From a virus, in UHGV virus genome UHGV-0461192: a DNA stretch of 34,141 nucleotides. One strand, written 5' to 3'. Position 1 is the stretch's first letter. Each line of letters begins with the position of its first letter. Position numbers and translations under genes: made by a program. Positions 367 to 34,141 of the stretch are shown here, one piece after another. Under the pieces are notes generated by a model. It saw only the letters and a program-made list of their open reading frames with translations. It searched no databases and was not told the DNA's origin.

Positions 367-453
367 GCCCGGATGGTGGAATCGGTAGACACAAGGGATT
401 TAAAATCCCTCGGCGTTCGCGCTGTGCGGGTTCAAGTCCCGCTCCGGGTACCA
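367..453 (+). tRNA. leuZ: tRNA-Leu (anticodon TAA), long variable arm
   Basis: 87-nt sequence GCCCGGATGGTGGAATCGGTAGACACAAGGGATTTAAAATCCC...GGGTACCA; class II tRNA with extra arm; anticodon loop GATTTAAAATC. Confidence 0.93.
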
Positions 454-496
454 TGGGAAAGATAAGAATAAAATCAAAGCAATAAGCAGTGTCGTG

Positions 497-2793: not shown

Positions 2794-5006
2794 GCTGTTT
2801 GCTCCTGTGCAGCGGTAAGGGCGGCGAGGCGTTCAGTTTTAATGTCGGTGATACGGCGCAGACGTGATCCCAGATACGATGAATATTCTTTATCGCCTTT
2901 GGTTTCCGCTGCTTTCCTGTGTACATCCACTTCGCGGGCGATGAGGCCAAATACCTTGTTTACTTCGTTGGCGGTTACCGCGGCGGCCAGCGTATTGGCA
3001 ACGTTGATAAGCTTCTCATCCAGTTCCTTACGCAGACGGGTAGCATCTTCCGCATTCTCGCTGGCATTCTTGATATCAAACTCAGCTTTATTCCTCTGGC
3101 GGTATTCCGGATTGTCGTACAGGCCCATGAAAATATCGGCGCTGAATCCGAGAGGGGATAGCGCTTTCTTAACAGCATCCGTCCAGGATTTCTTCGGTGC
3201 TTCGCCGTCGCTTGTTGGTCCGTATTTAGTGTCGTAGATATAAGGTGTGCATCCGTAAGCCTCGGACTCACCGCGTACCCCATTCAATATGTACCAGACT
3301 CTCACTTTCATGGTGTGGTGCATTTCACATAGGTACCCGCCAACACCGTCTTGAATCAGATCCCATTCTATTTTTTCACCAACCTGTTTTTTGCGAACTA
3401 TTGGTGCGCCTTTATCAAAGCGCTCCTCCAGCACCTCTACCCCCCAGCCAATACCAAATGGCCCAAATTCGCGAGTCGCTTTCATCGCTATATAAGTGCC
3501 GTTGATGGATGTGCCGCCGCCATTCTGAGAGAAAGCACTGGTGAAGCGCTCATCGGTTTTGAATACGTTCTTCCACAATGCCAGGTTATCCGTGTCATCT
3601 GAGTCCTTTAACTCCGTTTCGATAGCTGAGATTGCATTCTGCCGCTTGTGCTCTTCGGCATGGATCCGCTCAACCAGCGCGTCAACGTTCTGCACCAGAT
3701 CCTTTACCTGCTCGCTAAGTTGTTCTTGTGGAGGAGTCTCTTCTGCCAGGGTAATAGCTGCAGGTTCCCTCTGTGATACGGCGTTATTTTCAGGTACGTC
3801 ATACACATGGCGAGGCGTGACAAACTGCTCACGCAACTGCTGCAAACTACGTTCTCCAGCATTTGCAGCTTCGCTTTTTTCGCCCTGATTTGAGGGTGTT
3901 TCTGACATCATCCCATCAATTGAGAATCGTCCGCCGCCGTGGTTGGTGACTTTTACATCATCCTTGGGTGCTGCTTCCTTTGGCTTCTCTTCAACAGCAT
4001 TTGCATCACGCTGCCCGTTAGCTTGCAGCCAGTTGTCGATGTGACTGCGCAGGGATTGTGGGAAGTGGTACGTGTCTTTTGCGGGGGCGCTCTGAATAAC
4101 ACCGAATACTGATGCGCGGTCATAGGCAAGGATCTGATCCGTTGTGCGCAAGGCCATTGACCAGCGTTTAAAATCTTCCCTGTCCTGACTGATTATTTCG
4201 TCTGCCGCTTTCAGGATGCTGGGGGTGATTTTTTCCGGGGCAACAGGTAACAGGGCGCAGGCAATTTCACGATCCAGAGTGGCGTGAGTCTGTTTGTAAG
4301 GACGTGCGGATGCTGTTTCTGGTTTTACCTCCGGCAGCATTTCATCTCGTTTACCGGGATTCTCTACCCATTTTTTTATAAATTTGGAGATAGTCCAACT
4401 GGTCGGGTTTTGTTCCTGGGTATCGCAACTTGCCAAAATTGCATGTACCAGATTATTCAATCCAGCAATATGCATGTACTCGATGGGCTTACACGCCACC
4501 ATGGCATCAAGAACGATGCGGTTAAACGCGTCAACCTCATCCTCACTGTCAGTATCACTGTTATCGAGCATCTCCAGGTATTCACGCGTCTGCACAAGCA
4601 ATTCACTGTCGACTTCGTTGGCGTCGTGGCTGAACAGCAGAACGGCGGCGAATCGTTCACGAGCCGGCAGTTTCATCAGGTCGCTAACCTGTGAGATATC
4701 TGCTGAACTGCAATCTGAATCAACAGGAGTGTTAACTACCCATTTTTCGCCATCAAAACTGTGTTCTGTGGCAAACGTCTCATCAAACTCACCGACGCCT
4801 GGGCGCGGTTGGCCCGGGGCATCTTCCCAGATTTTAGGTTTGAAATAGTTGTCGCCGTGGTCAGGGTAGGCTTCCCACAATTTGCCGATGATGATGTTCT
4901 CGGCAACTTTTTTGTTAGGGGCGGCGATGGCGATGGCCAGCGCCGGGATCGCGCCGTTTTTGAGCGCGCCTTTTTTCGCTTCTAACAAGCCGTTAAAAAT
5001 GGTCAT
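2790..5006 (-). CDS. large recombination-associated protein with Rad52/Erf-type single-strand annealing signature in its C-terminal third
   Basis: 738-aa ORF; region FGPFGIGWGVEV...YGCTPYIYDTKYG...KKSWTDAVKKALSPLGFSADIFMGLYD resembles the conserved Rad52/Erf motif (K..TDA.K+AL..FG...); N-terminal ~500 aa of unknown function with long acidic stretches. Confidence 0.5.
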   Translation of the reverse strand: MTIFNGLLEAKKGALKNGAIPALAIAIAAPNKKVAENIIIGKLWEAYPDHGDNYFKPKIWEDAPGQPRPGVGEFDETFATEHSFDGEKWVVNTPVDSDCSSADISQVSDLMKLPARERFAAVLLFSHDANEVDSELLVQTREYLEMLDNSDTDSEDEVDAFNRIVLDAMVACKPIEYMHIAGLNNLVHAILASCDTQEQNPTSWTISKFIKKWVENPGKRDEMLPEVKPETASARPYKQTHATLDREIACALLPVAPEKITPSILKAADEIISQDREDFKRWSMALRTTDQILAYDRASVFGVIQSAPAKDTYHFPQSLRSHIDNWLQANGQRDANAVEEKPKEAAPKDDVKVTNHGGGRFSIDGMMSETPSNQGEKSEAANAGERSLQQLREQFVTPRHVYDVPENNAVSQREPAAITLAEETPPQEQLSEQVKDLVQNVDALVERIHAEEHKRQNAISAIETELKDSDDTDNLALWKNVFKTDERFTSAFSQNGGGTSINGTYIAMKATREFGPFGIGWGVEVLEERFDKGAPIVRKKQVGEKIEWDLIQDGVGGYLCEMHHTMKVRVWYILNGVRGESEAYGCTPYIYDTKYGPTSDGEAPKKSWTDAVKKALSPLGFSADIFMGLYDNPEYRQRNKAEFDIKNASENAEDATRLRKELDEKLINVANTLAAAVTANEVNKVFGLIAREVDVHRKAAETKGDKEYSSYLGSRLRRITDIKTERLAALTAAQEQTA

Positions 5007-12752: not shown

Positions 12753-12780
12753 CAGGTTGTTTGGGGCGGAAATACTCTAT

Positions 12781-12848
12781 TTGCGCTTAAAAAGGTATTT
12801 GACCACGACCAGCACGAGACCGAATACCTCTGTCAAAGTACCGCCCAT
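12781..12848. repeat. direct repeat copy A (remnant of the 3' end of a homologue of the 16200-16805 gene)
   Basis: 68 bp about 93 percent identical to 16204-16271; on the minus strand encodes MGGTLTEVFGLVLVVVKYLFKRK-stop with an in-frame stop 4 codons upstream. Confidence 0.75.
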
Positions 12849-12926
12849 ATAAAACAGTTACATATGCACTTGATGACTAAGCTGGCACCAGGTTAACACC
12901 TGGCGCCAGCTTGAAGGAGACTTCAG

Positions 12927-13850
12927 TTATTGGTTTCTGAGGAAAGCGATTCTTGAAAGGGTCATTTGCGTCTGGCAGTCGACCATTTTCTTGACTTCAG
13001 CATCTGTTCCCTGCATTGAAACTTTACCGCACATAGCATCCTTAGTTTTGATCCACTGACGCTGAGAAGGCAGCAAATCTTTTTTCTTCGCCGGGGTTAA
13101 CTTGCTCCAGACGGTACTCAAATCAGAGTCGGCATTCGCAAATGCCATTCGGGACTGATCAAGGTTGTCAGCTTTTTGCGGCTGAAGTTGTGCCTGTCTC
13201 TCTATTTGCTTCTCCGCCTCATACTTAGCCTGTTCTTGCGCCCTGAGTTGCACCTGTTGTTCCGCTTCAATTTGACTCTGTTGGGCATCCTTAGCCTGCT
13301 GGATTTTCTGCTGCTCAACGATCGGGGTGATAATGGAAAGCGATGTCAGTAAAGCGGCGCCCACTGATATCGGATTATCAGTAGAGGTTTTTACAAAAAC
13401 GTTTTTCTGATCGTCGGTCGCCTGCACGGTGTAGGTGATACGTTTTGAAAAGGCGTTTGCGTTGTTCTCCAAAAACAGGCTTTCCATTTGCTTATCGAGA
13501 TTACGATTAAAATTCTTTCTGTAAGCATCTGAAAGCTGGACGTACTCGTTCGCAGATAGAGTCATCGTCACGGTCCCTTCACAAGTTTTCATTGTGCTGC
13601 CCGTGTCACTTGATGTTGTGGAGATCTCAGAGATGGCTAGTTTGATCTTGTCCAGTGTGCTTCGTTTGGTCTGATTAGTGACATCAGGGTATTTATCGAC
13701 CTGTTCAGAGAGTCCTTCATAAGCAGATTTTTTTAATAAATCCATGAGAGCTGACTGGGTTATTTCCGAAGAACAACCGATCTCATCTTTTTTGTTATCA
13801 CAGCCTGTAAGGGCAATGGCGAGTAAGAGTACTGAGTATTTTAATCTCAT
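12927..13850 (-). CDS. lipoprotein with C-terminal DUF1311/LprI-like domain
   Basis: signal peptide plus lipobox (LLLAIALTGC); Q-rich coiled region; C-terminal QRQWIKTKDAMCG...DCQTQMTLSRIAFLRN fits the DUF1311 pattern. Confidence 0.6.
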   Translation of the reverse strand: MRLKYSVLLLAIALTGCDNKKDEIGCSSEITQSALMDLLKKSAYEGLSEQVDKYPDVTNQTKRSTLDKIKLAISEISTTSSDTGSTMKTCEGTVTMTLSANEYVQLSDAYRKNFNRNLDKQMESLFLENNANAFSKRITYTVQATDDQKNVFVKTSTDNPISVGAALLTSLSIITPIVEQQKIQQAKDAQQSQIEAEQQVQLRAQEQAKYEAEKQIERQAQLQPQKADNLDQSRMAFANADSDLSTVWSKLTPAKKKDLLPSQRQWIKTKDAMCGKVSMQGTDAEVKKMVDCQTQMTLSRIAFLRNQ

Positions 13851-16199: not shown

Positions 16200-16805
16200 T
16201 TACTTGCGTTTAAAAAGGTATTTTGTCACGACCAGCACGAGGCCGAATACCTCTGTCAAAGTACCGCCCATGTACAACTGTAGTGTTAAATCCTCAAATT
16301 CCAGCTTACCTGCGCCGTCGGCAATAAATACACCATTCATTATCAGAAGTTGGAAAGCAAGGATAATCAGGAACCATTTCCCGTATCGTTTTTTTAGAGC
16401 GATTTCTGCTTCAAAATCTTTGTTGTTGAGTTGTTTGCGCTCATGCTCGGTATCAAGTGAATTCACCTGTTTCACAGATGTGAACTCGGTCAAGATTTTA
16501 CTCTCAGTACGGGTGACTTGTTGAGAGGGTGTAGCAGTTGGAATTCTTTTGCTAGACGCAGCTACAGCCATTTTGCGAGCTTCGGCAGCTCTTTTTCTGG
16601 CTATTCCGCGAATACGGACAGCCGTTTTTTTGGGGGCGTGCGAAACCTTTGGCTGAGGTGAAGCTTCGTCAGGAGACTGAACCGGAGTTTCATCGTCCTC
16701 CGGCTCAACCTCTTCTGCTAACTGACGGTGTAGGTTGAGGGAATCCTTCAGTCTGCGTGCTACTTCCTGTTTGAAACGGCTGTTAAAATCGTCATCCGAT
16801 GGCAT
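16200..16805 (-). CDS. hypothetical protein with charged N-terminal region and C-terminal transmembrane helices
   Basis: 201-aa ORF directly downstream of (4 aa gap) the ImmA-like gene; C-terminal hydrophobic segments (WFLIILAFQLLIMNGVFIA, VFGLVLVVTKYLF). Confidence 0.55.
   Translation of the reverse strand: MPSDDDFNSRFKQEVARRLKDSLNLHRQLAEEVEPEDDETPVQSPDEASPQPKVSHAPKKTAVRIRGIARKRAAEARKMAVAASSKRIPTATPSQQVTRTESKILTEFTSVKQVNSLDTEHERKQLNNKDFEAEIALKKRYGKWFLIILAFQLLIMNGVFIADGAGKLEFEDLTLQLYMGGTLTEVFGLVLVVTKYLFKRK
16204..16271. repeat. direct repeat copy B (3' end of the 16200-16805 gene)
   Basis: matches 12781-12848 with 5 mismatches in 68 bp. Confidence 0.75.
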
Positions 16806-22908: not shown

Positions 22909-23475
22909 ATGGCAAGTCAGGCTGAGGTTGCAGCACATTTACTGCTATCTGATCGTCGTCTGCGCGATCTCGCAAAACTTCCGGGAGCACCAGTCCCACA
23001 AGGACGTGGTGATTGGGAGCTAGACGCATGGCGCCATTTTTATATTCGTTATCTCCGGAGCAATAGACGCGACACAACTAGTAATGACGAACCGGAAGCG
23101 GGGGACAATTCTCCCGAAAAAAATCGCGAGCAGTGGCTGAAAAATGAGGAACGACAGGAGCGAATCCTGATGGCACGAGTAAAACGCCGCATTCTCGCTA
23201 AACGCTACGCGCCAATTGAATTAATTAGCGTCGCTGTATCTCGCGTCGCCGTTGAATTACGTACCCGCGTCGAGTCGTGGCCACCACGCCTGAAAAAGGT
23301 CTGGCCGGAGATGCCGCAAGAGGCGAGCAGTGTATTACGAGAGGAGCTGGCGATAGCCTTAAATGAGTTGTCAGACATACGAATCGACTTCAGCGATTAC
23401 GATGTCAGCGATATCGAACGCGATCTCGACAGGGTTGAATCCCTTGCGCGTGACGATACCGATGACGGGTGTTGA
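22909..23475 (+). CDS. terminase small subunit (Nu1-like)
   Basis: 188-aa ORF; N-terminal pattern resembles lambda Nu1; overlaps the large-subunit start. Confidence 0.7.
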   Translation: MASQAEVAAHLLLSDRRLRDLAKLPGAPVPQGRGDWELDAWRHFYIRYLRSNRRDTTSNDEPEAGDNSPEKNREQWLKNEERQERILMARVKRRILAKRYAPIELISVAVSRVAVELRTRVESWPPRLKKVWPEMPQEASSVLREELAIALNELSDIRIDFSDYDVSDIERDLDRVESLARDDTDDGC

Positions 23476-25324
23476 GTGGGCTGATAAATATTTTTATCTC
23501 CCTGAGGGCTCCAGCCACATCGCTGGGCACTGGACGACTCAGCCGGTCCAGGTAGTGATGCTCAATATGATGACGAACGACGCGATAAAAATCGTGTCTG
23601 TTCGCAAATCAGCTCGTCTCGGTTATACAAAAATACTCGTCGCGGCGCTGCTCTATTTCGCTGAGCACAAAAAACGTAGTGCCGTGGTCTATCAGCCTAT
23701 CGATGACGAATCGGATGGATTTGTCGCCGACGAGGTTGACCCCGCTATCGCCGAAATGCCAGTGATTCAGAAAATTTTCCCCGACTGGGATAAAAGCAAC
23801 GAGCGTAACAATCTCCAGCGTAAAGAAATGAGCGGCGCGATTCTTGATTTTCGCGGCGCGAGTGCACCAGGAAATTTCCGGCGACTAACGAAACAGGTTG
23901 TCGAGGGTGACGAAGTTGACGGCTGGCCGCTGGAAGTTGCCAAAAAAGGCAAAGGCGAGGGCTCGCCCATCGAACTGGCGCTCGTTCGAATTAAAGGGGC
24001 AGCGTACCCGAAGGCGATTTTTGGTTCGACGCCGACCGTTACCGGCAAAAGTCATATCGAAATGCTCGAAGACGCTGCCGATCTGACGTTTCGTTTTTAC
24101 CTGACATGTCCGCATTGTGGCGAGGAGCAGGTCCTGGTATTTGGTTTCGACGGTATCGAATACGGCCTCAAATGGGATAACAGCCTGCAGACCAATGAGG
24201 CGAAATCGTCGTCCGCGTATTACCAGTGCTGCCACTGCCCGGAACATTTTTACTATCGCGATCTCGAAAAAATGGAGTTCGGGGGGCGCTGGATAGCCGA
24301 GGACTGCACCTGGACCCGAGACGGCATTCATTTTTTTGATCATGACGGTGGCGTCGTTCGCGCGCCGAAACACGCTGCGATCGTGATAAACGCCCTGTAT
24401 TCACTAAACCTCGATGGATGGGGCGAGATTGTCAGCGAGTGGCTGAAAGCGAAAGGCGACCCGCTCAAGGAAAAGACGTTTCATAACACGACGCTCGGCG
24501 AACTCTGGAGCGACGTGGCCAGCGAGCAGCTGGAGCACGATATTCTGGTTAATCGCCGGGAAAAATACGCCAGCCAGGTTCCTGACGGTGTTGTTTATAT
24601 AACCGGCGGCATCGACTCTCAGACGTCCGGGCGCTACGAGTGTTATGTGTGGGGCTGGGGAGCCGAGGAGGAGTGCTGGCTGATTGATAAAACAATCGTC
24701 CTCGGTCGCTACGACGAGGAGGACACGCTGCAGCGCGTCGACGGAGTGATTCGCAAACAATACCGGCGCAGCGACGGGACCACAATCGGCGTCAGTCGCT
24801 GGGCGTGGGATACCGGTGGTATAGATGCGCAGGTCGTTTATAACCGCTCGCTGAAACTCGGTCCGCTGTGGGTCATTCCAATCAAGGGCGCGAGCTCATA
24901 CGGCCAGCCGGTCGTAAATATGCCTCGTACCCGTAACGCGAATAAAGTGTATTTGTCGTTGATTGGGACAGATACAGCGAAAGACCTGCTCGCAATGCGC
25001 CTGCAGCTGGAACCCGACTCCAAATCGGCGACACCAGGTGCGATTCATTTTCCCAACGACGACGAAATATTCAGCACGACAGAGGCAAAACAGCTCGTCT
25101 CCGAGGTTCTGATCCCGAAACTCATTAACGGTCGCGTCGTTTATCGTTGGGACAACCAGGGCCGGCGAAATGAGGCGCTCGACTGCTGGGTGTACGGACT
25201 GGCAGCGCTGCGTATCAGTAAAATTCGTTTCCAGCTCAATCTCGAGACGCTCGCTGAGCAACGGAAAAAATCACAAAACAAACTGTCTCTCGAGGAGATG
25301 GCCAGAATGCTCGGAGGGAGCTAA
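23462..25324 (+). CDS. terminase large subunit (lambda gpA-like)
   Basis: VEWADKYFYLPEGSSHIAGHW...VSVRKSARLGYTKILV...FYLTCPHCGEEQ...DTGGIDAQVVYNRS...IPIKGASSYGQPV closely parallels lambda gpA; start taken at ATG 23462, ORF opens at 23363. Confidence 0.93.
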   Translation: MTGVEWADKYFYLPEGSSHIAGHWTTQPVQVVMLNMMTNDAIKIVSVRKSARLGYTKILVAALLYFAEHKKRSAVVYQPIDDESDGFVADEVDPAIAEMPVIQKIFPDWDKSNERNNLQRKEMSGAILDFRGASAPGNFRRLTKQVVEGDEVDGWPLEVAKKGKGEGSPIELALVRIKGAAYPKAIFGSTPTVTGKSHIEMLEDAADLTFRFYLTCPHCGEEQVLVFGFDGIEYGLKWDNSLQTNEAKSSSAYYQCCHCPEHFYYRDLEKMEFGGRWIAEDCTWTRDGIHFFDHDGGVVRAPKHAAIVINALYSLNLDGWGEIVSEWLKAKGDPLKEKTFHNTTLGELWSDVASEQLEHDILVNRREKYASQVPDGVVYITGGIDSQTSGRYECYVWGWGAEEECWLIDKTIVLGRYDEEDTLQRVDGVIRKQYRRSDGTTIGVSRWAWDTGGIDAQVVYNRSLKLGPLWVIPIKGASSYGQPVVNMPRTRNANKVYLSLIGTDTAKDLLAMRLQLEPDSKSATPGAIHFPNDDEIFSTTEAKQLVSEVLIPKLINGRVVYRWDNQGRRNEALDCWVYGLAALRISKIRFQLNLETLAEQRKKSQNKLSLEEMARMLGGS

Positions 25325-25557
25325 TGACGTCGCGCGAGGTTTTAACAGAACGACTGCTGGAAGCGGAAATCGCTCTGCACAAATTATTAACGGGTAAATC
25401 GACCGTGTCGCTGTCTCACGGCGATTCAGCAGGAAATAACCGGAGCTATCAATACTCGCAGGCGAGTATTGAGCAGCTCCGAACGTACATTATCGAGCTG
25501 AAATCACAGCTCGGTCTGAGTACGGGACGCCGTCGGCCCGTGGGAGTTCGATTATGA
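25324..25557 (+). CDS. head-tail joining protein (lambda gpW-like)
   Basis: 77-aa ORF; EIALHKLLTGKSTVSLSHGD...SIEQLRTYIIELKSQLG parallels lambda gpW. Confidence 0.8.
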   Translation: MTSREVLTERLLEAEIALHKLLTGKSTVSLSHGDSAGNNRSYQYSQASIEQLRTYIIELKSQLGLSTGRRRPVGVRL

Positions 25558-27128
25558 CTGCTCCGCAGCAGCTGCTCGGGCCTGACGGTAAAACGCCACT
25601 ACGCCGTTACGCGGGGTATAACGGCGGCGGTCCCGGTTTCGGTGGCCAGCTGATTGACTGGAACGCACCACAGCAGAGCGCCGACGCAGCACTGTTGCCG
25701 AATTTTTATCGCGGTAACGCGCGAGCAGACGATCTCGTTCGCAATAACGGCGTCGCGTCGAACGCCGTGCAGCTGCACCAGGATCATATCGTCGGCAATC
25801 TGTTTAAGTTGAGTTATCGCCCTAACTGGCGTTACCTCGGCATATCTCGCGAGGACGCCAGGGCGCTGGCGCGTGACGTCGAGGTAGCGTGGACTGAATA
25901 CGCCGAGGACCCTCACTGCACGATTGATATCGAGCGGAAACGGACGTTCACAATGATGATCCGCGAGGGCGTGGCTACTCACGCTTTCAACGGTGAAACC
26001 TGCGTACAACCAGTCTGGGAGAGTAGTGCCGGCAGCGTTTTTCGGACGCGATTCAAAATGGTCTCACCGAAACGGATTCGAAATCCGGGTTACGCAGCTG
26101 ACACTCAATTTCGCCGCGCCGGTGTTGATATCGATAAAAACGGGGCCGCGGTCGGGTACTGGATAGCCGAGGATACTTACCCTCTCGGCGGAGTCGGTAA
26201 ATGCCGGCGTATCCCAGCACAGCTCAGCAGCGGCAGACACGCATTCATCCACATATTCGAGCCGCTCGAGGACGGACAGACCCGCGGGGACAATATTTTT
26301 TACAGCGTCATGGAGCGCCTGAAAATGCTCGACACACTGCAGCAAACACAACTGCAGAGCGCCATTGTGAAGGCGATGTATGCCGCGACAATCGAATCAG
26401 AGCTCGACAGCCAGCAGGCGTTTGAATATATCGCCGGCGCGGGTACTGATATCGACTCGAACCCGCTGAATTCGTTTATTCAGAGTTACGTGACGTACTA
26501 CAACGGCGCAAATATCAAGCTCGGTGGTGTGAAAGTTCCCCACCTGCATCCCGGCGACAAACTCAGTTTACAGACCGCTCAGAATGCTGATGCTGGTTTT
26601 AGTTCACTGGAAAAATCACTCCTGCGTTACGTTGCAGCTGGCGTTGGCGCGTCATACGAAGAACTTAGCCGGGACTACAGCCAGGTCAGTTACTCCAGCG
26701 CCCGGGCCAGTGCTAACGTCAGCTGGCGATTTTTCATGGGGCGTCGACGTTTTATCGCCGCGCGACAGGCGTCGCTGATGTTCTGCTGCTGGTTTGAAGA
26801 GGCGCTGGCACGCGGAATTATCACCCTGCCACGCTCAGCTGTCCGGTCGTTTTATGAGGCGCGGAACTCCTGGACGAACGCGCTCTGGATCGGCGCTGGT
26901 CGCATGGCGATTGATGGGCTGAAAGAGGTTCAGGAGAGCGCCATGCGCATCACAACTGGCCTCAGCACGTATCAGAACGAACTGGCGCTGCAGGGACAGG
27001 ATTACGAGGAGGTTATGGAGCAGCAGGAATACGAAATTCAGCGCCGGCGTGAAATGGGGCTGAGCGAACCGTCATGGTCTGTATCTCACCCCTCAAATAC
27101 CAACGATAACGGCTGGGGAGGTAACTGA
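25554..27128 (+). CDS. portal protein (lambda gpB-like)
   Basis: 524-aa ORF with long collinear matches to lambda gpB (LLGPDG...LREYAGY.GGG.GFGGQL; LPNFYRGNARADDLVRNNG; RKRTFTMMIREGVA; GRMAIDGLKEVQE). Confidence 0.93.
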   Translation: MTAPQQLLGPDGKTPLRRYAGYNGGGPGFGGQLIDWNAPQQSADAALLPNFYRGNARADDLVRNNGVASNAVQLHQDHIVGNLFKLSYRPNWRYLGISREDARALARDVEVAWTEYAEDPHCTIDIERKRTFTMMIREGVATHAFNGETCVQPVWESSAGSVFRTRFKMVSPKRIRNPGYAADTQFRRAGVDIDKNGAAVGYWIAEDTYPLGGVGKCRRIPAQLSSGRHAFIHIFEPLEDGQTRGDNIFYSVMERLKMLDTLQQTQLQSAIVKAMYAATIESELDSQQAFEYIAGAGTDIDSNPLNSFIQSYVTYYNGANIKLGGVKVPHLHPGDKLSLQTAQNADAGFSSLEKSLLRYVAAGVGASYEELSRDYSQVSYSSARASANVSWRFFMGRRRFIAARQASLMFCCWFEEALARGIITLPRSAVRSFYEARNSWTNALWIGAGRMAIDGLKEVQESAMRITTGLSTYQNELALQGQDYEEVMEQQEYEIQRRREMGLSEPSWSVSHPSNTNDNGWGGN

Positions 27129-28435
27129 TGCCGTGGAACAATTTTCCGCACCTCGCCGCCAGGGCGTTCAATCAACCGCTTTTGCTGGAGCCCACCTACG
27201 CGCGGGTATTTTTTTCGGCGCTGAGCGACCGGTTCGGTACCGGGCGACTGATTGATACAGCGTCTGGAGAGGTAATGAACAGCGACGAAATGAACGCGCT
27301 CGCGATGGGGTGGGACAGCAGCGAGCGAACACGCCAGAAATCGTATCGCGTGGAGCGTGGTATAGCCGTTCTGCCGGTTACCGGGACGCTGGTTCATAAA
27401 TTGGGTTATATCAACCCAGTTAGCGGGATGAGCGGTTACAACGGAATCGCAAAACGCCTGCAGCAGGCGATTTCTGATCCCGATGTAAGAGGGGTCCTGC
27501 TTGATATTGACTCCCCTGGCGGTGAAGTCGCCGGCGCGTTTGATACTGCTGATTTAATCGCCCGGGCGCGAGAGCAAAAACCTGTGTGGGCGCTGGCCAG
27601 CGATACGGCCTGCAGCGCTGCCTATTTGCTGGCGTCAGCGTGTTCGCGCCGGCTGATAACGCAGACAGGCACAGTTGGTTCAATCGGTGTCCTGATGGCT
27701 CACCGCTGCGTCGAAAAAGCGCTGGAGATTGCTGGCGTCGACGTGACGCTGATTTACGCCGGCGCGCACAAAGTTGACGGGAACCCGTATTCCCAGCTGC
27801 CAGGCGACGTTCGCGACGAATTCCAGCTGAGTATTAACAGCACGCGCGAGCAGTTCGCGCAAAAAGTCTCGGATTATACCGGGCTGAAAAAATCCAGGGT
27901 GCTGGCCACGGAAGCTGCAGTATTTATCGGCGCGGACGCGATTAAATCTGGTCTCGCTGATCAACTCGTTAATTACGCGGACGCTATCGCAGTGATGGCC
28001 GACGCACTGAAACCAAAAATGGAGCGCTTTATGTCTGGTACAGAAACCACGGCGGAGACCACGACCACAGAACAAACCGCGACCACGACTACTGTCGCGC
28101 AGGTTGAGTTTAACACGGAGCAGATTCGCGCGGACGCCGCATCAAGCGAACTGGCGCGTGTGATGGCCATCATCAATTGTCCCGAAGCTGTTGGGCGCGA
28201 GGCGCAGGCAAAAGCGCTCGCTGGCGTCCCCGGGATGACGGTCGGGCAGGCGCAGGTAGTCCTCGCTGCAGCACCTAAAACGGCGCAGGCGCGGACAGAA
28301 ACGGCGCTCGATACACTAATGAGCACTGAATCACCAGCGACTATTCAGGATGCTGGCAGTACTACGGCAACAGGAACAACCGCAAACGTCTCGATGCTGG
28401 TTGCTGCAGGGCGTTCAATTTTAGGGGATGAATAA
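27128..28435 (+). CDS. head maturation protease / scaffold (lambda gpC-like, S49 ClpP-type)
   Basis: 435-aa ORF; GIAVLPVTGTLV...MSGYNGIAKRLQQA, KPVWALASDTACSAAYLLASA and TGSIGV... parallel lambda gpC. Confidence 0.9.
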   Translation: MPWNNFPHLAARAFNQPLLLEPTYARVFFSALSDRFGTGRLIDTASGEVMNSDEMNALAMGWDSSERTRQKSYRVERGIAVLPVTGTLVHKLGYINPVSGMSGYNGIAKRLQQAISDPDVRGVLLDIDSPGGEVAGAFDTADLIARAREQKPVWALASDTACSAAYLLASACSRRLITQTGTVGSIGVLMAHRCVEKALEIAGVDVTLIYAGAHKVDGNPYSQLPGDVRDEFQLSINSTREQFAQKVSDYTGLKKSRVLATEAAVFIGADAIKSGLADQLVNYADAIAVMADALKPKMERFMSGTETTAETTTTEQTATTTTVAQVEFNTEQIRADAASSELARVMAIINCPEAVGREAQAKALAGVPGMTVGQAQVVLAAAPKTAQARTETALDTLMSTESPATIQDAGSTTATGTTANVSMLVAAGRSILGDE

Positions 28436-28764
28436 TGACTACAGAAACGTATAGCCCGGACGATTTTATTCTTGGGCCTGACCTTGTTGTCACGACCGTC
28501 GGTCATTTTCAGGGCGGGATCAACGTACCCCGGCTGACACCGATTATGCTCGACGCTACTGTCGGGACGTTTAAGGTTTGGGACGGCTCAGTCGGTAAAG
28601 CTATTGGCCTCACTGCCACCGCAGTTAATACTGGCTCCAGTTCTGCAGACTGCTCGTACTATAAATCAGGCTCGTTCCGTTACACGGCGATTAACTGGGG
28701 TACGGTTACCGACGTAGCTAAACGCAAATCAGCATTTGCGGGTACGCCGATCAGCGTCGGCTGA
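28435..28764 (+). CDS. head decoration protein (lambda gpD-like)
   Basis: 109-aa ORF; YYKSGSFRYTAINW...KRKSAFAGTPISVG parallels lambda gpD (FYKSGTFRYEDVLW...KKRTAFAGTAISIV). Confidence 0.88.
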   Translation: MTTETYSPDDFILGPDLVVTTVGHFQGGINVPRLTPIMLDATVGTFKVWDGSVGKAIGLTATAVNTGSSSADCSYYKSGSFRYTAINWGTVTDVAKRKSAFAGTPISVG

Positions 28765-28783
28765 TAGCAAAAAACTCAAAACA

Positions 28784-28808
28784 AGCCGCCTCCGGGCGGT
28801 TTTTTTAT
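28784..28808 (+). terminator. intra-operon hairpin plus T-run between the D-like and E-like genes
   Basis: CCGCC-TCCG-GGCGG stem followed by TTTTTTTAT. Confidence 0.35.
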
Positions 28809-28822
28809 AACAGGATATATAA

Positions 28823-29857
28823 ATGAGCGATTCGTTTACTACGTCAGAACTGATTACCGCGACACAGCAGGTATTTAAGTTCAATCCGTTGTTTTTAAAG
28901 CTGTTTTTCCGTGAGACCTACACGTTTACGAGCGAAGAGGTTTTTCTGGATAAAATCCCGGGAAAAGTGAACATGGCCGTGTACTGCGCGCCGATGATCA
29001 CCGGCAAAGTTGACCGCACTCGCGGCTATTCAACGAACCATTTCAAACCGGGTTACACGAAACCCAAGCACACGATCAATCCGAATATGAGCATCAAGCG
29101 CGCAGCCGGTGAGCAGATTGGCCAGCCGGAAACGCCGGTCGAACGTCGTGCAAAAATCATCATGCAGAACCTGCTTGATGAGGAACTGAGCATCAGCCAG
29201 CTCGAAGAGTTCCAGGCGGTACAGGCTGTTCTGTACGGTAAATACACTGTTTCCGGCAGCAATATCGAGACCTATGAGATCGACATGAGCCGCAGCGCGA
29301 CGAATAACGTCACTCAGTCCGGTTCGACAGCCTGGTCGACTCAGGACGCGGAAACGTATGACCCGAGCGACGATATTGAATCCTACGCGGACCTCGCCTC
29401 CGGTGCGGTTAACGTGATCATCATGGATGGTAAAGCCTGGAAGCAGTTGAAGCGTTTTAAAAAATTCTGGACGGCACTGGATACGCGCCGTGGCTCAAAC
29501 AGCCAGCTCGAGGTCGCGCTGAAAAACCTGGGCGACGTTGTCAGCTTTAAAGGCTACTACGGCGACACTGCGCTGTTTGTCTACAAAGGGCAATACCTCG
29601 ACCCGGTAACAGACACTGAAACGCGTTATATGCCGGATAACACGATGATCCTTGGCAACACAAAAAACCGCGGGCTCCGCACTTATGGCGCAATTCAGGA
29701 CGAAGACGCGCTGAAAGAGGGTATTTCCGAAGCGACGCGCTATCCAAAAGTCTGGACCACTACCGGTGATCCGGCAGTGACGCAAACAATGACGCAATCC
29801 GCGCCAGCAATGGTCCTCACGGACGCCGACGCGTTCGTTGTCGTAAAAATCGCGTAA
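28823..29857 (+). CDS. major capsid protein (lambda gpE-like)
   Basis: 344-aa ORF collinear with lambda gpE (FKFNPLFLKLFFRE, IPGKVNMA, DTRRGSNSQLE, LPDNTMILGNTKNRGLRTYG, YPKVWTTTGDPA). Confidence 0.95.
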   Translation: MSDSFTTSELITATQQVFKFNPLFLKLFFRETYTFTSEEVFLDKIPGKVNMAVYCAPMITGKVDRTRGYSTNHFKPGYTKPKHTINPNMSIKRAAGEQIGQPETPVERRAKIIMQNLLDEELSISQLEEFQAVQAVLYGKYTVSGSNIETYEIDMSRSATNNVTQSGSTAWSTQDAETYDPSDDIESYADLASGAVNVIIMDGKAWKQLKRFKKFWTALDTRRGSNSQLEVALKNLGDVVSFKGYYGDTALFVYKGQYLDPVTDTETRYMPDNTMILGNTKNRGLRTYGAIQDEDALKEGISEATRYPKVWTTTGDPAVTQTMTQSAPAMVLTDADAFVVVKIA

Positions 29858-29880
29858 GAGTCGAAAGGCTCTTTTTTGTT
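29856..29880 (+). terminator. weak hairpin plus T-run after the major capsid gene
   Basis: AAGAG-TCGAAAGG-CTCTT followed by TTTTGTT. Confidence 0.3.
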
Positions 29881-29891
29881 AAGGAATCAAC

Positions 29892-30311
29892 ATGAGCACA
29901 AAAACAGAATTGCTGGCGCGTATTGACGATCTGAGCGCTCAGCTCGGTCGCGAATTACCGCGCAGCGGGACTATTGCGGAACTGGAATCAATCGTTGCCG
30001 GCGCTGAGTCAGAGCTCGATATTCTGAACGAGCAATCCGGTGACGCGGGAGGCATCGAGATTACAGTGAATACTGCGTCCGGGACCGATAATGAACTCGC
30101 TCAATCAATCGCGAGCGCTATCGTTTCACAGTCACAAGAGCAGGAGCTCGCACCGGCTACGCGCCGCGTCAAGTTGCGTAACACGCTGGACGTTTATCAC
30201 TACGTGAACGGGCGTCGCGTTCGCGAGATTGTTGCCGCAGGCCGTGAAATTGTTGTTGATTCACCGGAGGTCGCAGACCTTATCGCAGCTGATCACGTTT
30301 ACGCTCTATGA
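29892..30311 (+). CDS. DNA packaging protein FI-like
   Basis: 139-aa ORF; N-terminus TELLARIDDLSAQLGREL...ELESIVAGAESEL parallels lambda gpFI. Confidence 0.75.
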   Translation: MSTKTELLARIDDLSAQLGRELPRSGTIAELESIVAGAESELDILNEQSGDAGGIEITVNTASGTDNELAQSIASAIVSQSQEQELAPATRRVKLRNTLDVYHYVNGRRVREIVAAGREIVVDSPEVADLIAADHVYAL

Positions 30312-30688
30312 GCTACTACGATGACCTCCGGGCCGGCGACGAGGAGATGATCCGTGAGTGGGGACGGCCCGTTAAATTACGCGGTAAAACCGACCCCATT
30401 ATCGCTATTTTCAACGAGCCTTACGCGCGCGTTGACGTTCCTCACGCTGGTTTTATTACCGGTACAGTAACGAGCCTGACGGCGCTCTCGGACGACGTCG
30501 CTGGCGTTGTTGCGCGTGACGTCGTCCAGGTTCCAAAGCAGCGCAGCATCGAACCTGACGGCTCTGTTACCTGGTCTGGCTGGACCGATTACGTGGTTAA
30601 AGAGCCTCAACCTGATGGCACAGGGCTCACGAATATTTTTTTAGAGCCTCACACGTCCAGCGAAAACAGCGAGTATTCAAAATACTAA
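30308..30688 (+). CDS. head-tail connector FII-like
   Basis: 126-aa ORF at the position of lambda gpFII with weak N-terminal resemblance; 4-nt overlap with the FI-like gene. Confidence 0.55.
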   Translation: MSYYDDLRAGDEEMIREWGRPVKLRGKTDPIIAIFNEPYARVDVPHAGFITGTVTSLTALSDDVAGVVARDVVQVPKQRSIEPDGSVTWSGWTDYVVKEPQPDGTGLTNIFLEPHTSSENSEYSKY

Positions 30689-30719
30689 GTGGGACCTCGG
30701 TCCCACTTAAGGGGGAACC

Positions 30720-31400
30720 GTGGCCGATTTACGTAGTAACGCGCAGATGTTCGATATCGATGTTTCGGCGCTGGAGCAGCTCAGAGTCGAAATCAGCGCG
30801 ACGCAACATCAAATGTTAATGGTATACAACAGGGCGCTGAACCGAACTGCAAAACATATGCACCGAATTTCAGCAGGAATGATTTTGACTGCACTGGCAG
30901 CTAAAAATCATAAGGCCGTAGATAAACGAATCAAGCCGTTCATTAAGCGCCGTAATTTTACAAAAGAAGGGGCAGGAGACCTGAGCAGCGCCAAGCTCTG
31001 GTACGGTCTGAATGATTTCCGGGTATCTGAGCTAAAGGGGCGATTACAAAATCCACGGAGGCAAAAACAGCCTCGCGATCTTGAGACCGGCCTGTTTTTG
31101 AAAACCAAAAAAGGCGCTAGAGGGGCAACTTTTACACCCAAAAGTGCAGGGCTGGCGATGATGAGTTGGCCCGATTCATTCGTAGCGAAACGCTACGGTG
31201 CGAAAAGTGTCTGGATTCGACTGGATCGCGGAGGAATCGAAGAGGCTCGCGTACCTGTGCACGACGCGCTGGAGGATGCTATCGATGATTATATTTTTGA
31301 AAACATTGGCCCTGTTTTTATGGGCTTTTTTGAGAAAGATTTGCGCGGTCGCGTGAAAGGTAATGTCCACGTAGACCCAAAAACAGGTAAACGATTATGA
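30720..31400 (+). CDS. putative virion/tail assembly protein (minor tail protein Z-like?)
   Basis: 226-aa basic ORF, GTG start after an AAGGGGGAA RBS; sits after the head-completion genes. Confidence 0.45.
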   Translation: MADLRSNAQMFDIDVSALEQLRVEISATQHQMLMVYNRALNRTAKHMHRISAGMILTALAAKNHKAVDKRIKPFIKRRNFTKEGAGDLSSAKLWYGLNDFRVSELKGRLQNPRRQKQPRDLETGLFLKTKKGARGATFTPKSAGLAMMSWPDSFVAKRYGAKSVWIRLDRGGIEEARVPVHDALEDAIDDYIFENIGPVFMGFFEKDLRGRVKGNVHVDPKTGKRL

Positions 31401-31933
31401 GCGGACTGGATGCATTTGACGAATATCTTGATCGCGTTAAAGGCGCGGTTTTACAAATACCGTTCATCAAAACATTCGGAATTTATCCGGAAATTCCGGC
31501 TGGATTTGAAACGCCAGCTCTGTTCCTGGAAATCAGCAACTGGTCACAGAGTGACGAATCGGTTCCAGGCTCAATTCAGTCAGTCGAGCTGTCGTGTAAT
31601 TTGTATTTGCTGCGTGAATTTGCAGCTGATCAGTACGGACTGAAATCGCAGAATGCAGCGCTCTATATGACGAGCTGGATCAATGGGCGAATGTTCGGTC
31701 CCGGAACTAAACCGGCAAAATTCAGCGACGCGGAACCGTGCGACTGGATTAAAAACGGGCAGTCAGTCGGTTCGCATTCAGTTCAGTGCGTGTCGTTCAC
31801 GCAGGTTGTAGGCGTTGGTCCAGATATTTTCGATTATCCCTCACAGGGGACCCTGAAAAATATATACGTCGGAATAGCACCAGATATCGGCGCAGAACAT
31901 GAGGGCGACTATTATGGCCCAATCGGACGATGA
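31397..31933 (+). CDS. putative tail-completion/virion protein
   Basis: 178-aa ORF overlapping neighbours; no recognisable motif. Confidence 0.4.
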   Translation: MSGLDAFDEYLDRVKGAVLQIPFIKTFGIYPEIPAGFETPALFLEISNWSQSDESVPGSIQSVELSCNLYLLREFAADQYGLKSQNAALYMTSWINGRMFGPGTKPAKFSDAEPCDWIKNGQSVGSHSVQCVSFTQVVGVGPDIFDYPSQGTLKNIYVGIAPDIGAEHEGDYYGPIGR

Positions 31934-32420
31934 ATATGCTGCAGCGGAGAACGCGCGCAGGCTGCGTGACGCAGTTAAACGCGGCACGATAGCTGCAGTT
32001 AAAATGAATCCTCCACGCTGCCGAGTCTCATTTGGTGGCGAACACCAGTCAGGCTGGCTGCAGTGGTTTACTCACGCCACCTCAGAACGCGTCGACTGGA
32101 GCGCACCATCAGTGGGCGATCCCGTTACTGTTGTTTCTGAGGGTGGGGATACGCGGAACGGTGTAGTTATGCTCGGGCTGCACATTGACGACAAAGCTCC
32201 GCCAAGCAATGACCCCCATGATCATGTCACTGCATACTGTGACGGGGCTACGATGACGTATAACACAAAAAATCACACTCTGACTTGTCATGGCTACCCC
32301 ATTTGCACGCTGAGTTTGATTTCTGTGCAGTACGGAGCCTGCCCGACGCCAGCGATCACATCCTCTGTTGGCGATATCAGAATCACACGTTCAGTGCCGT
32401 CACGATGTATCGCGTCGTAA
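31914..32420 (+). CDS. baseplate hub/spike protein gpV-like, N-terminal portion only (interrupted at the inverted-repeat junction)
   Basis: PRCRVSFGGEHQSGWLQWFTHATSERVDWSAPSVGDPV...HVTAYCDGATMTYNTKNHTLT parallels the N-terminal half of P2 gpV; after 32284 the frame runs antisense through the 3' end of the J-like gene. Confidence 0.6.
   Translation: MAQSDDEYAAAENARRLRDAVKRGTIAAVKMNPPRCRVSFGGEHQSGWLQWFTHATSERVDWSAPSVGDPVTVVSEGGDTRNGVVMLGLHIDDKAPPSNDPHDHVTAYCDGATMTYNTKNHTLTCHGYPICTLSLISVQYGACPTPAITSSVGDIRITRSVPSRCIAS
32230..32284. repeat. inverted repeat, left copy (55 bp, perfect)
   Basis: CTGCATACTGTGACGGGGCTACGATGACGTATAACACAAAAAATCACACTCTGAC is the exact reverse complement of 34087-34141. 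Confidence 0.95.
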
Positions 32421-33214
32421 ATTCCTGACAGAGCTGCCGTCGCTCCGATTTTATGTTGCGTATCCACATATATCGCCAAATCGCTCTGAGCACCGTTAAG
32501 CAAAACGTTCTGGTCGGGTCCGAGCCCGGCTACGATAACGGCCTCAACCCGGTAATTCAGGTTCGACGCAGGTTTTACAGTCACGAAATCAGTCAGCGGT
32601 CGAGTATCGTCAGGAGACAGGGCCGCATTCACTGTATTCAGTAGTGATTGAGGCGGAGTGCCGTCGCCGGTTCGCGACAAGACATACATATCGACGTATC
32701 CAGGCTGGGTCACCGGCGGGCCGTACGCCTGAGCTGTCAGAACGTCGGGATCACTCGACAGCGCGAAATAGTTATAGGCGTTCGTACTGCCGGCAGTATT
32801 CCGCGCATACCATGATAGCTGTATTCGGTGTCGATACTCGTCGTCACTCTCGTAAACAGCCTCAGTCGGGGGAATTACATCGGGATTAGCTGGCGTTATC
32901 AACAGCCGCAGGCAGTCAAAATTAGCGCCAATCTGGTCGAGGTCACTCCCCTTTGCAAACGCGAGCAATACAGCGAGCATCCCCTGATTTACCCGAGCTG
33001 TAATAATGATTTCTCTGTATGCAACTATTTCCAGCAGTTTAACGGCCGGGTCTGACTCCAGGAGTGCGTTAAATTGTGGATATAATATCTGCAGCTCTGA
33101 CAGTAGATTAGATTTAACATCTGAAAATAACGGGGTTTTAACGAATGCTGGCGGCGGCAGCAGACTCATATCAATAGTTTTCACTATCGAATTCTGAACT
33201 GTTGATGTTATCAA
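32294..33214 (-). CDS. baseplate assembly protein J-like (P2 gpJ family)
   Basis: 306-aa ORF collinear with P2 gpJ (LLEIVAYREIIITARVNQG, GSDLDQIGANFDCLRLLITPA, PPTEAVYESDDEYRHRIQ, PYCTEIKLSV). Confidence 0.85.
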   Translation of the reverse strand: MITSTVQNSIVKTIDMSLLPPPAFVKTPLFSDVKSNLLSELQILYPQFNALLESDPAVKLLEIVAYREIIITARVNQGMLAVLLAFAKGSDLDQIGANFDCLRLLITPANPDVIPPTEAVYESDDEYRHRIQLSWYARNTAGSTNAYNYFALSSDPDVLTAQAYGPPVTQPGYVDMYVLSRTGDGTPPQSLLNTVNAALSPDDTRPLTDFVTVKPASNLNYRVEAVIVAGLGPDQNVLLNGAQSDLAIYVDTQHKIGATAALSGIYDAIHRDGTERVILISPTEDVIAGVGQAPYCTEIKLSVQMG

Positions 33215-33552
33215 AATATCAGCTCCATATTATTAAACTCTAATCGCTGTTGTGTTTCGATATCTGTTGCGATAATTAATATTGTTATTTTCCCGATATC
33301 CACTGCTAACACATTTATTCTGTCAATTCTGACGCGTGGTTCCCATCGTGCTATTGCGCCAGCGCTTTCCATGATTATTCGCATAGCAAGCGACGGATCT
33401 GTGGGATTATCAACAAGATCAAATAATTTGCTGCCATATTCCGGCAGCATTACACGCGTCCCCAGCGGGGTCGTTAAAATATCAACGATAGACTGACGAA
33501 TGTGATCAGTCCCCGATAAAAGTTTACCGGTGTTACGGTCCATTCCAAGCAT
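33211..33552 (-). CDS. baseplate wedge protein W-like (P2 gpW / GPW-gp25 family)
   Basis: MLGMDRNTGKLLSGTDHIRQSIVDILTTPLGTRVM...WEPRV parallels P2 gpW; internal Met chosen as start, ORF opens at 33600. Confidence 0.8.
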   Translation of the reverse strand: MLGMDRNTGKLLSGTDHIRQSIVDILTTPLGTRVMLPEYGSKLFDLVDNPTDPSLAMRIIMESAGAIARWEPRVRIDRINVLAVDIGKITILIIATDIETQQRLEFNNMELIF

Positions 33553-33554
33553 CT

Positions 33555-34141
33555 TTACGCCATTGGTTGGTTCGGTTGTTGAGTTTCCCCGTCCGGACAT
33601 ATATGAGTGTGTCCGTTATACGTTGTGCGGACTTCAGTTATTGTGCCTTGTCGGTCCTGCACCTCTTGCCCTGCTAACACACTACCGCGAGTTGTGATAT
33701 TACCTGTTCCACCGTTATCTCCAGTGACAGAAATATCGTTACGGAATGTCGCTAATTTATCTACTACTAATGTCTCGGTAATATGCGTTGGACCAGCTAG
33801 TGTTATACCACCCGGAGCCCACGCGCTGATTGTTTGAGCTGTCAGCGATATTCTGTTCGCAGCAGTAACACTAACAGAACTCGTTGCTATAACGTTCACT
33901 AAATCAGCATGTGCGTTAATTGTATCTGTCGCTGTGACATTAATAATATCAGCGTCTGCGTTAATTAATTTCCCACCATGGATATTAACTACATTTTCGC
34001 TATTAATAGTAACATCTGCGCGTCCAAATATTTCTATTTCAGACTCACCGAGTATTTTTACCACGCCGTCCGGTACGCCCTGCCATGTCAGAGTGTGATT
34101 TTTTGTGTTATACGTCATCGTAGCCCCGTCACAGTATGCAG
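33555..34141 (-). CDS. baseplate hub/spike protein gpV-like, C-terminal portion (frame open to the window edge)
   Basis: ORF begins MTYNTKNHTLTWQGVPDG..., continuing the sequence at which the plus-strand V fragment breaks; ends TYNGHTHICPDGETQQP, like the P2 gpV C-terminus. Confidence 0.65.
   Translation of the reverse strand, partial: AYCDGATMTYNTKNHTLTWQGVPDGVVKILGESEIEIFGRADVTINSENVVNIHGGKLINADADIINVTATDTINAHADLVNVIATSSVSVTAANRISLTAQTISAWAPGGITLAGPTHITETLVVDKLATFRNDISVTGDNGGTGNITTRGSVLAGQEVQDRQGTITEVRTTYNGHTHICPDGETQQPNQPMA
34087..34141. repeat. inverted repeat, right copy (55 bp, truncated by the window end)
   Basis: reverse complement of 32230-32284; identity runs to the last base of the window, so the true repeat may be longer. 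Confidence 0.95.

What the first reader, a model, noticed from the sequence alone, without database searches (positions are those of the whole stretch)
32230..34141. Baseplate gene V is split by a perfect 55-bp inverted repeat, with V C-terminus, W and J on the opposite strand
The plus-strand ORF 31914-32284 encodes the N-terminal half of a P2-type gpV and then runs into junk. The minus-strand ORF 34141-33555 encodes the rest of gpV, starting at exactly the residues where the plus copy breaks (TMTYNTKNHTLT), followed by W and J. The breakpoint coincides with a perfect 55-bp inverted repeat (32230-32284 and 34087-34141) whose right copy touches the window edge. Inverting 32285-34086 in silico restores an intact collinear V-W-J block behind the head genes. 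This is either an invertible DNA segment, a homologous-recombination junction between two elements (prophage or tailocin-like cluster) in opposite orientation, or an assembly artefact. The segment carries baseplate genes rather than tail-fibre tips, so it does not fit the classical Gin/Cin/Pin host-range switches.
Basis: seen in the sequence. Interest (0 to 1): 0.78.

Follow-up and report, generated by a model that had tools for sequence, protein, structure and literature searches.

The report
Fold-back assembly artefact in prophage contig
The "split" baseplate gene V and its 55-bp inverted repeat come from a metagenome assembler doubling back through a normal E. coli prophage at the end of a contig, so this is an artefact and not a biological inversion switch.

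Summary
The sequence observation is real. A perfect 55-bp inverted repeat lies at 32230-32284 and 34087-34141. V codons 1-128 are on the plus strand, and the rest of V, plus W and J, are on the minus strand.

The window is the 3' end of an ENA contig with SPAdes-style naming (ERZ807452 NODE_9_length_35430), and 34141 is the true contig end. Finished E. coli ST131 genomes carry the same prophage at about 99.9% identity, fully collinear (V-W-J-I-fibre-sheath-tube-D) with an intact 305-aa V. Both arms of the repeat map to one single-copy 55-mer inside that V.

The contig reads through V to codon 128. It then jumps 1.8 kb at a 4-bp microhomology (TGAC) onto the antisense strand at base 11 of gene I. 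From there it runs back through J, W and V-C, re-enters the same 55-mer in reverse, and stops.

The contig has exactly one repeated canonical 55-mer and no repeated 56-mer, and 55 is the default metaSPAdes graph overlap. The junction occurs in no other searched assembly. No invertase is present.

Verdict: a chimeric link plus a de Bruijn-graph fold-back, not a real feature. A rare real rearranged molecule in the sample cannot be fully excluded without the reads.

The parts
31899..32284 (+). Baseplate gene V, codons 1-128 of 305 (alternative ATG at 31914). Identical to V of E. coli ZH063 up to 32284.
   Evidence: Pfam PF04717 Phage_base_V on the called gene.
32230..32284 (.). Left copy of the 55-mer 'X'. 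In graph terms this is the branching k-mer vertex, the last 55 nt shared by the true path (X then V-C) and the chimeric path (X then antisense gene I).
   Evidence: It is single-copy in finished genomes.
32275..32291 (.). Chimeric junction. There is a 4-bp exact microhomology TGAC at 32281-32284, or 8 of 10 matches over 32275-32284. It is followed by the antisense of the first 7 nt of gene I (ATGACAA, 32285-32291).
   Evidence: Base-by-base comparison with ZH063. The junction is absent from every other collection searched.
32294..33214 (-). Baseplate gene J, complete, 306 aa.
   Evidence: Pfam Baseplate_J. The exact protein is on 667 contigs elsewhere.
33211..33552 (-). Baseplate gene W (GPW/gp25 family). 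Coordinates follow the RefSeq annotation of ZH063; the longest ORF runs to 33600.
33555..34141 (-). 3' part of gene V (about codon 111 to the stop). It reads uninterrupted across the position where the plus-strand copy breaks.
34087..34141 (.). Right copy of the 55-mer (reverse complement of X). It forms the last 55 nt of the source contig, which is the re-entered graph vertex.

Best explanation
The arrangement is a fold-back produced during metagenome assembly. It is not a structure of the prophage.

Shown:
- The window is the 3' end of a contig with SPAdes-style naming from ENA assembly ERZ807452.
- The underlying element is a common E. coli ST131 prophage at the tRNA-Leu gene of the Gly-Cys-Leu tRNA cluster. 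Its morphogenesis genes are collinear and its V gene is intact.
- The contig follows that prophage through V to codon 128. It then joins, across a 4-bp microhomology (TGAC), to the antisense strand at base 11 of gene I, 1.8 kb downstream.
- It reads back through J, W and the 3' part of V. It stops exactly 55 nt after it re-enters sequence it has already used.

Inferred:
- The assembly used a final k of 55, the metaSPAdes default.
- A small number of chimeric reads or fragments created a spurious graph edge out of the 55-mer vertex X. These would be inverted chimeras with an intervening deletion, typical of strand-displacement or template-switch events in library preparation. Alternatively, the assembler's own gap-closing step made the edge.
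- The path-finder took that edge, traversed the unique I-J-W-V edge backwards, returned to vertex X in reverse orientation and had to end there.

On this reading, the 55-bp perfect inverted repeat is one genomic 55-mer written twice, and its length is set by the software.
For: 1. Source and contig end. The fusion ORF is found on a single contig, ena:ERZ807452:NODE_9_length_35430_cov_15.457922. The window equals record positions 1290-35430, so 34141 is the contig end.

2. Native structure. ZH063 (NZ_CP014522.1) has the same prophage collinear, from terminase through an intact 305-aa V, W, J, I, fibre, sheath and tube to D. Window 23230-32284 matches it on one strand and 32275-34141 on the other, at 99.9%.

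3. Single copy. X occurs once in that locus, and at 442 places in 440 finished genomes.

4. k-mer signature. The contig has exactly one repeated canonical 55-mer and no repeated 56-mer. The repeat's inner boundary is the exact base where the two paths diverge. Default metaSPAdes graphs have 55-bp overlaps (PMC12133742).

5. Uniqueness. The junction is in 0 of 5,426 finished E. coli genomes, 0 JGI metagenome contigs and 0 IMG/VR contigs. The fusion protein is on 1 contig, against at least 1000 contigs for intact V.

6. Intact V in the same contig. The window's minus strand reads across the intact X to V-C adjacency at 34086/34087. Intact V sequence was therefore among the reads that built this contig.

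7. Junction type. An inverted join spanning a deletion, with short complementarity, matches the dominant class of amplification chimeras. More than 85% of those are inverted with intervening deletions, with 2-21 nt of complementarity at the junction (PMC1855051).
Against: - I could not see the reads, the assembly graph or the assembly parameters. The final k of 55 and the chimeric-read origin are inferred.
- It is not known whether the library was amplified.
- Why the path-finder preferred the chimeric edge to the true continuation (X to V-C to W to J to I) is not explained.
- A real low-frequency rearranged molecule in the sample would give the same contig.
Confidence: 0.9

Rival explanations
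1. A real rearrangement in part of the sampled E. coli population. This would be either a microhomology-mediated inversion of the V-C/W/J segment or a fold-back (inverted-duplication) molecule, for example from a replication template switch. It would coexist with cells carrying the intact prophage, and the assembler would have threaded the minority junction.
For: - The junction has a 4-bp exact, 8-of-10 imperfect microhomology, as real template-switch events also do.
- Some k-mers must have supported the link for it to enter the graph.
- A metagenome can hold mixed populations.
Against: - The contig itself contains the intact X to V-C adjacency, so the rearranged form cannot be the only one.
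- Neither the junction nor its reciprocal partner occurs in any of 5,426 finished E. coli genomes or in the JGI contigs.
- A true fold-back extending into the chromosome would be a giant palindrome and is hardly viable.
- The repeat length and the contig end are explained by k=55 without any biology.
- Even if real, it would be a one-off dead prophage variant.
Confidence: 0.07
2. A programmed invertible DNA segment, flanked by 55-bp inverted repeats and flipped by a site-specific recombinase, that switches baseplate genes on and off.
For: Only the appearance of an inverted repeat flanking a gene block, and the fact that in-silico inversion restores V.
Against: - The native prophage has only one copy of the 55-mer, so there is nothing to recombine.
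- The outer flank of the left arm and the arm itself are ordinary V coding sequence. The inner flank of the left arm is a non-homologous join.
- After inversion, J runs into antisense V, not into gene I.
- No serine or extra tyrosine recombinase was found in the 30 window ORFs scanned. The only recombinase is the prophage integrase at 584-1630, and one sub-threshold HTH_7 match has no catalytic domain.
- None is annotated in the remainder of the prophage.
- None of 583 finished genomes with this prophage region shows the flipped state.
Confidence: 0.01
3. A homologous-recombination junction between two related prophages or tailocin clusters that lie in opposite orientation in the same genome.
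For: E. coli genomes often carry several P2-like tail modules. A few finished genomes have up to 3 places matching the 55-mer.
Against: - Recombination within a shared V segment would join V-N to a V-C in the same reading direction and give a hybrid but intact V. It would never join V-N to antisense gene I/J.
- The actual join has only 4 bp of identity.
- The V-C, W and J in the window are 99.9% identical to those of the very same prophage, not to a second diverged element.
Confidence: 0.01

Closest known systems
De Bruijn-graph contig ends with k-length overlaps (SPAdes/metaSPAdes), including fold-back or hairpin paths through a chimeric edge
   Same: - The repeat is exactly 55 nt, the default metaSPAdes graph overlap (PMC12133742).
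- One copy is the last 55 nt of a NODE_ contig.
- There is one repeated 55-mer and no repeated 56-mer.
- Both copies map to one genomic locus.
   Different: The familiar case is a direct k-length overlap at the two ends of a circular contig. Here the overlap is inverted and lies between an internal site and one end, because the path re-enters the vertex on the other strand.
Inverted chimeras from strand displacement or template switching during DNA amplification or library preparation (Lasken and Stockwell 2007, PMC1855051)
   Same: - Inverted orientation.
- An intramolecular join across a short (1.8 kb) intervening stretch.
- Short complementarity at the junction: 4 bp exact, within the reported 2-21 nt range.
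   Different: It is not known whether this library was amplified by MDA. The chimera is inferred from a contig and not seen in reads. An assembler-made join is an alternative source.
Din-family invertible host-range segments (Mu G/Gin, P1 C/Cin, e14 P/Pin)
   Same: A superficial resemblance only: a gene block in a phage tail region bounded by an inverted repeat.
   Different: - Those have two genuine repeat copies in the genome.
- They have an adjacent serine invertase.
- They carry alternative tail-fibre C-termini.
Here the repeat is single-copy in nature, there is no invertase, and the block holds V-C, W and J.
P2-type baseplate module V-W-J-I in an E. coli ST131 prophage at the tRNA-Leu gene of the Gly-Cys-Leu cluster
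   Same: The underlying genes are ordinary members. V, W and J are 99.9% identical to those of ZH063 and hundreds of other finished genomes.
   Different: Nothing biological differs. Only the order and strand in this one contig are changed.

Membership tests
k-mer-overlap fold-back assembly artefact | Repeat length equals the assembler's final k. | tested here: met
   Exactly one repeated canonical 55-mer and zero repeated 56-mers. The metaSPAdes default overlap is 55 bp (PMC12133742). SPAdes-style contig name. The k actually used for ERZ807452 was not seen.
k-mer-overlap fold-back assembly artefact | One copy of the repeat sits at the very end of the contig. | tested here: met
   The window's tail equals record 23203-35430 of a 35,430-nt contig, so 34141 is the contig end.
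k-mer-overlap fold-back assembly artefact | Both copies correspond to a single-copy locus in independently finished genomes. | tested here: met
   X occurs once in ZH063's prophage, and at 442 places in 440 genomes.
k-mer-overlap fold-back assembly artefact | The novel junction is unique to this assembly. | tested here: met
   The fusion ORF is on 1 contig only. The junction is absent from 5,426 finished E. coli genomes, the JGI metagenome contigs and IMG/VR.
k-mer-overlap fold-back assembly artefact | The junction is supported by few or aberrant reads, while the true adjacencies have full depth. | not testable with these tools
Din-family (Gin/Cin/Pin/Hin) invertible segment | Two inverted recombination sites are present in the native genome. 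| tested here: not met
   There is only one copy of the 55-mer in the finished prophage.
Din-family (Gin/Cin/Pin/Hin) invertible segment | An adjacent serine invertase gene. | tested here: not met
   Pfam scans of 30 window ORFs found no Resolvase domain, only a tyrosine integrase at 584-1630 and a sub-threshold HTH_7 match. None is annotated from gene I to attR in ZH063.
Din-family (Gin/Cin/Pin/Hin) invertible segment | The segment carries alternative tail-fibre C-terminal and assembly genes. | tested here: not met
   The segment holds the V 3' part, W and J.
Din-family (Gin/Cin/Pin/Hin) invertible segment | Both orientations are found in populations or related genomes. | tested here: not met
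   0 of 583 finished genomes with this prophage region show the window's orientation. Population reads were not testable.
P2-type baseplate module (V, W, J, I) | Pfam Phage_base_V, GPW_gp25 and Baseplate_J genes in the order V-W-J-I. | tested here: met
   Domains. The order holds in the finished genome. In the window it holds only after undoing the fold-back.

The most novel reading that the evidence does not exclude
The junction reflects real DNA molecules in the sampled gut community. This would be a microhomology-mediated inversion or fold-back within the ST131 prophage, present in a sub-population alongside the intact form, that inactivates V and uncouples the tail genes.
Probability: 0.07. 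Interest if true: 0.15.

Novelty: not a real feature. Interest (0 to 1): 0.03.

Why it matters
It matters mainly as a warning. A perfect inverted repeat whose length equals an assembler's k (55, and by the same logic 77, 99 or 127), with one arm on a contig end, should be treated as a graph artefact until reads say otherwise. Otherwise it produces false invertible segments, false split genes and false fusion proteins. The 168-aa V-plus-junk fusion ORF from this contig is already in a public protein collection as a singleton. Nothing about phage baseplate biology is learned from it.

Tried and rejected
- **Invertible segment.** I scanned 30 window ORFs against Pfam and read the annotation of the rest of the prophage. 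There is no invertase. The repeat is single-copy in nature. Rejected.

- **Recombination between two inverted elements.** The join has only 4 bp of identity. The inverted genes are 99.9% identical to the same prophage. Rejected.

- **Complete reciprocal inversion.** I built the predicted second junction and searched for it. It is in 0 of 5,426 finished E. coli genomes and 0 JGI contigs. This does not test the source sample itself.

- **Finding the source study.** A full-text search for ERZ807452 returned nothing, so the library method (amplified or not) stays unknown.

- **Fusion ORF from the first ATG.** An exact look-up of the 173-aa ORF starting at 31899 found nothing. The gene caller had used the ATG at 31914, and that version found the source contig.

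- **Assembler gap-closing (a lead from memory, not tested).** I recall that SPAdes' gap-closing step accepts tip overlaps of at least 10 nt with up to 2 mismatches. The junction overlap is 10 nt with exactly 2 mismatches. The join could therefore be assembler-made and not read-derived.

Full report
**1. The observation**

The window has a perfect 55-nt inverted repeat, 32230-32284 and 34087-34141. It extends to 65 nt at 95% complementarity if taken inward. It is the only strong inverted repeat in the 34 kb and the only canonical 55-mer that occurs twice.

On the plus strand, an ORF from ATG 31899 (or 31914) encodes V codons 1-128. It then reads on as junk to 32420. On the minus strand lie three genes:
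- the 3' part of V (34141-33555);
- W (33552-33211, or to 33600 as the longest ORF);
- a full-length 306-aa J (33214-32294).

Pfam matches are Phage_base_V, GPW_gp25 and Baseplate_J.

**2. Where the window comes from**

The window opens with tRNA-Gly, tRNA-Cys and tRNA-Leu genes, followed by a tyrosine integrase at 584-1630. After that come:
- a lambdoid early region with a CI-like repressor, a DnaB-type helicase, antiterminator Q, holins and a CHAP-domain endolysin candidate;
- lambda-like head genes.

It is a prophage at a tRNA-Leu site.

An exact look-up of the V-plus-junk fusion ORF (168 aa, from ATG 31914) finds it on exactly one contig in a 15-billion-protein collection. That contig is ena:ERZ807452:NODE_9_length_35430_cov_15.457922. 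The window's last 12,228 nt are identical to record positions 23203-35430. Position 34141 is therefore the real end of a contig with SPAdes-style naming from a metagenome assembly. By contrast, the intact 305-aa V is on at least 1000 contigs.

**3. The native structure**

Megablast against 5,426 finished E. coli genomes finds this region in 583 of them, mostly O25b:H4/ST131 strains, at 99.8-99.9% identity. The query always splits into two pieces at about window position 32275, and no genome has the window's arrangement.

In ZH063 (NZ_CP014522.1) the prophage is completely collinear on one strand. The order is terminase, gpW, portal, S49 protease, decoration protein, capsid, FI, head-tail joining protein, two hypotheticals, an intact V (918 nt), W, J, I, tail fibre, a hypothetical protein, sheath, tube, assembly protein, a 1641-nt unannotated gene, tail protein, X, D, one more ORF. 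Then comes an 88-bp copy of window 398-485, which is attR.

Window 23230-32284 aligns to this locus on one strand. Window 32275-34141 aligns on the other strand. The 55-mer occurs once in the locus (L001 10813-10867), and both arms of the window's repeat map to that one place. Across finished genomes it is single-copy, with 442 places in 440 genomes.

**4. Anatomy of the junction**

Up to 32284 the window is identical to V. From 32285 it is identical to the antisense of gene I bases 1-7, the J stop codon and J. The two partners share TGAC exactly (32281-32284), and 8 of 10 bases over 32275-32284. This is a non-homologous, inverted join that spans 1.8 kb.

At the other end, the minus-strand V sequence runs straight through the break position (34086/34087) into the 55-mer. 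The contig then stops, and the reference simply continues with the rest of V. So the same contig holds both the intact adjacency X to V-C and the novel adjacency X to antisense-I.

Undoing the inversion in silico gives a V gene identical at 918 of 918 nt to ZH063's. But 11 nt into gene I the restored sequence runs into antisense V instead of gene I. The inversion therefore does not recreate the natural locus. The structure is a fold-back, not an inverted segment between two sites.

**5. Why the repeat is 55 nt long**

In a de Bruijn graph of order k, neighbouring segments overlap by k. A path that re-enters a branching vertex repeats exactly that k-mer. Three observations fit k=55:
- The contig has one repeated canonical 55-mer and no repeated 56-mer.
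- The inner boundary of the repeat is the exact base at which the true and chimeric paths diverge.
- The other copy is the last 55 nt of the contig.

Default metaSPAdes graphs have a 55-bp overlap (PMC12133742). It is my own knowledge, not tested here, that the default metaSPAdes k series ends at 55 and that ENA ERZ metagenome assemblies are commonly made with it. The repeat's length and position are thus predicted by the software, with no biological input.

**6. Where the false link came from (inferred)**

More than 85% of chimeras made by strand-displacement amplification are inverted joins with an intervening deletion. They are mostly intramolecular, with 2-21 nt of complementarity at the junction (Lasken and Stockwell 2007, PMC1855051). 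The present junction has that form. I do not know whether this library was amplified; a search for the accession in the literature found nothing.

An alternative is that the assembler made the join itself. From memory, SPAdes' gap closer accepts overlaps of at least 10 nt with up to 2 mismatches, and the overlap here is 10 nt with 2 mismatches. This is a lead, not a test.

**7. Rivals**

- **Programmed inversion** is excluded in practice. The native element has one copy of the repeat, not two. No invertase is in the window or in the rest of the prophage. No finished genome shows the flipped state.
- **Homologous recombination between two inverted elements** cannot give V-N joined to antisense I/J. 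The join has only 4 bp of identity.
- **A real, complete inversion** predicts a reciprocal junction. That sequence is absent from all finished E. coli genomes and from JGI contigs, as is the observed junction. These searches do not cover the source sample's reads.
- **A real minority molecule in that sample** remains possible at a few per cent. It would be a one-off defective variant.

**8. Verdict**

There is no new biology. The genes underneath are an ordinary, widespread ST131 prophage baseplate module. Novelty: not a real feature. Interest: 0.03.

Noticed in passing
window 398-485, and L001 1-88: An 88-bp stretch covering the 3' part of tRNA-Leu(taa) and its downstream flank is repeated exactly at the far end of the prophage in ZH063, just past the late gene D region. 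It is the attL/attR core of this prophage. The full element is therefore about 9 kb longer than the window shows.
   Followed up: partly
window 23363-34141, and L001: The morphogenesis region is a hybrid. It has lambda-type head genes (GpA terminase, gpW, Phage_portal_2, S49 protease, HDPD decoration protein, Phage_cap_E, FI). These run directly into a P2-type contractile tail and baseplate (V, W, J, I, sheath, tube, X, D).
   Followed up: no
window 12778-12858 and 16201-16281: An 81-nt direct repeat at 89% identity. The second copy is the 3' end of the 201-aa minus-strand ORF at 16200-16805, encoding a hydrophobic C-terminus ...YMGGTLTEVFGLVLVVTKYLFKRK. The first copy lies in an intergenic gap with no ORF of at least 30 aa on the minus strand, so it looks like a remnant of a paralogous gene end.
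   Followed up: partly
window 2790-5006 (-): A 738-aa ORF in the early-left region next to a Sipho_Gp157 homologue. It has no Pfam match at E<=0.001.
   Followed up: no
window 31914-32420 (+): The artefactual V-plus-antisense-J fusion ORF (168 aa) has been deposited in a public protein collection as a singleton sequence. It sits in a cluster of V fragments. This is an example of assembly artefacts seeding protein databases.
   Followed up: yes
window 12927-13850 (-): A 307-aa ORF with a lipoprotein-like N-terminus (LLAIALTGC) and a C-terminal LprI (lysozyme inhibitor) domain sits inside the prophage. It may be a moron or accessory gene.
   Followed up: no
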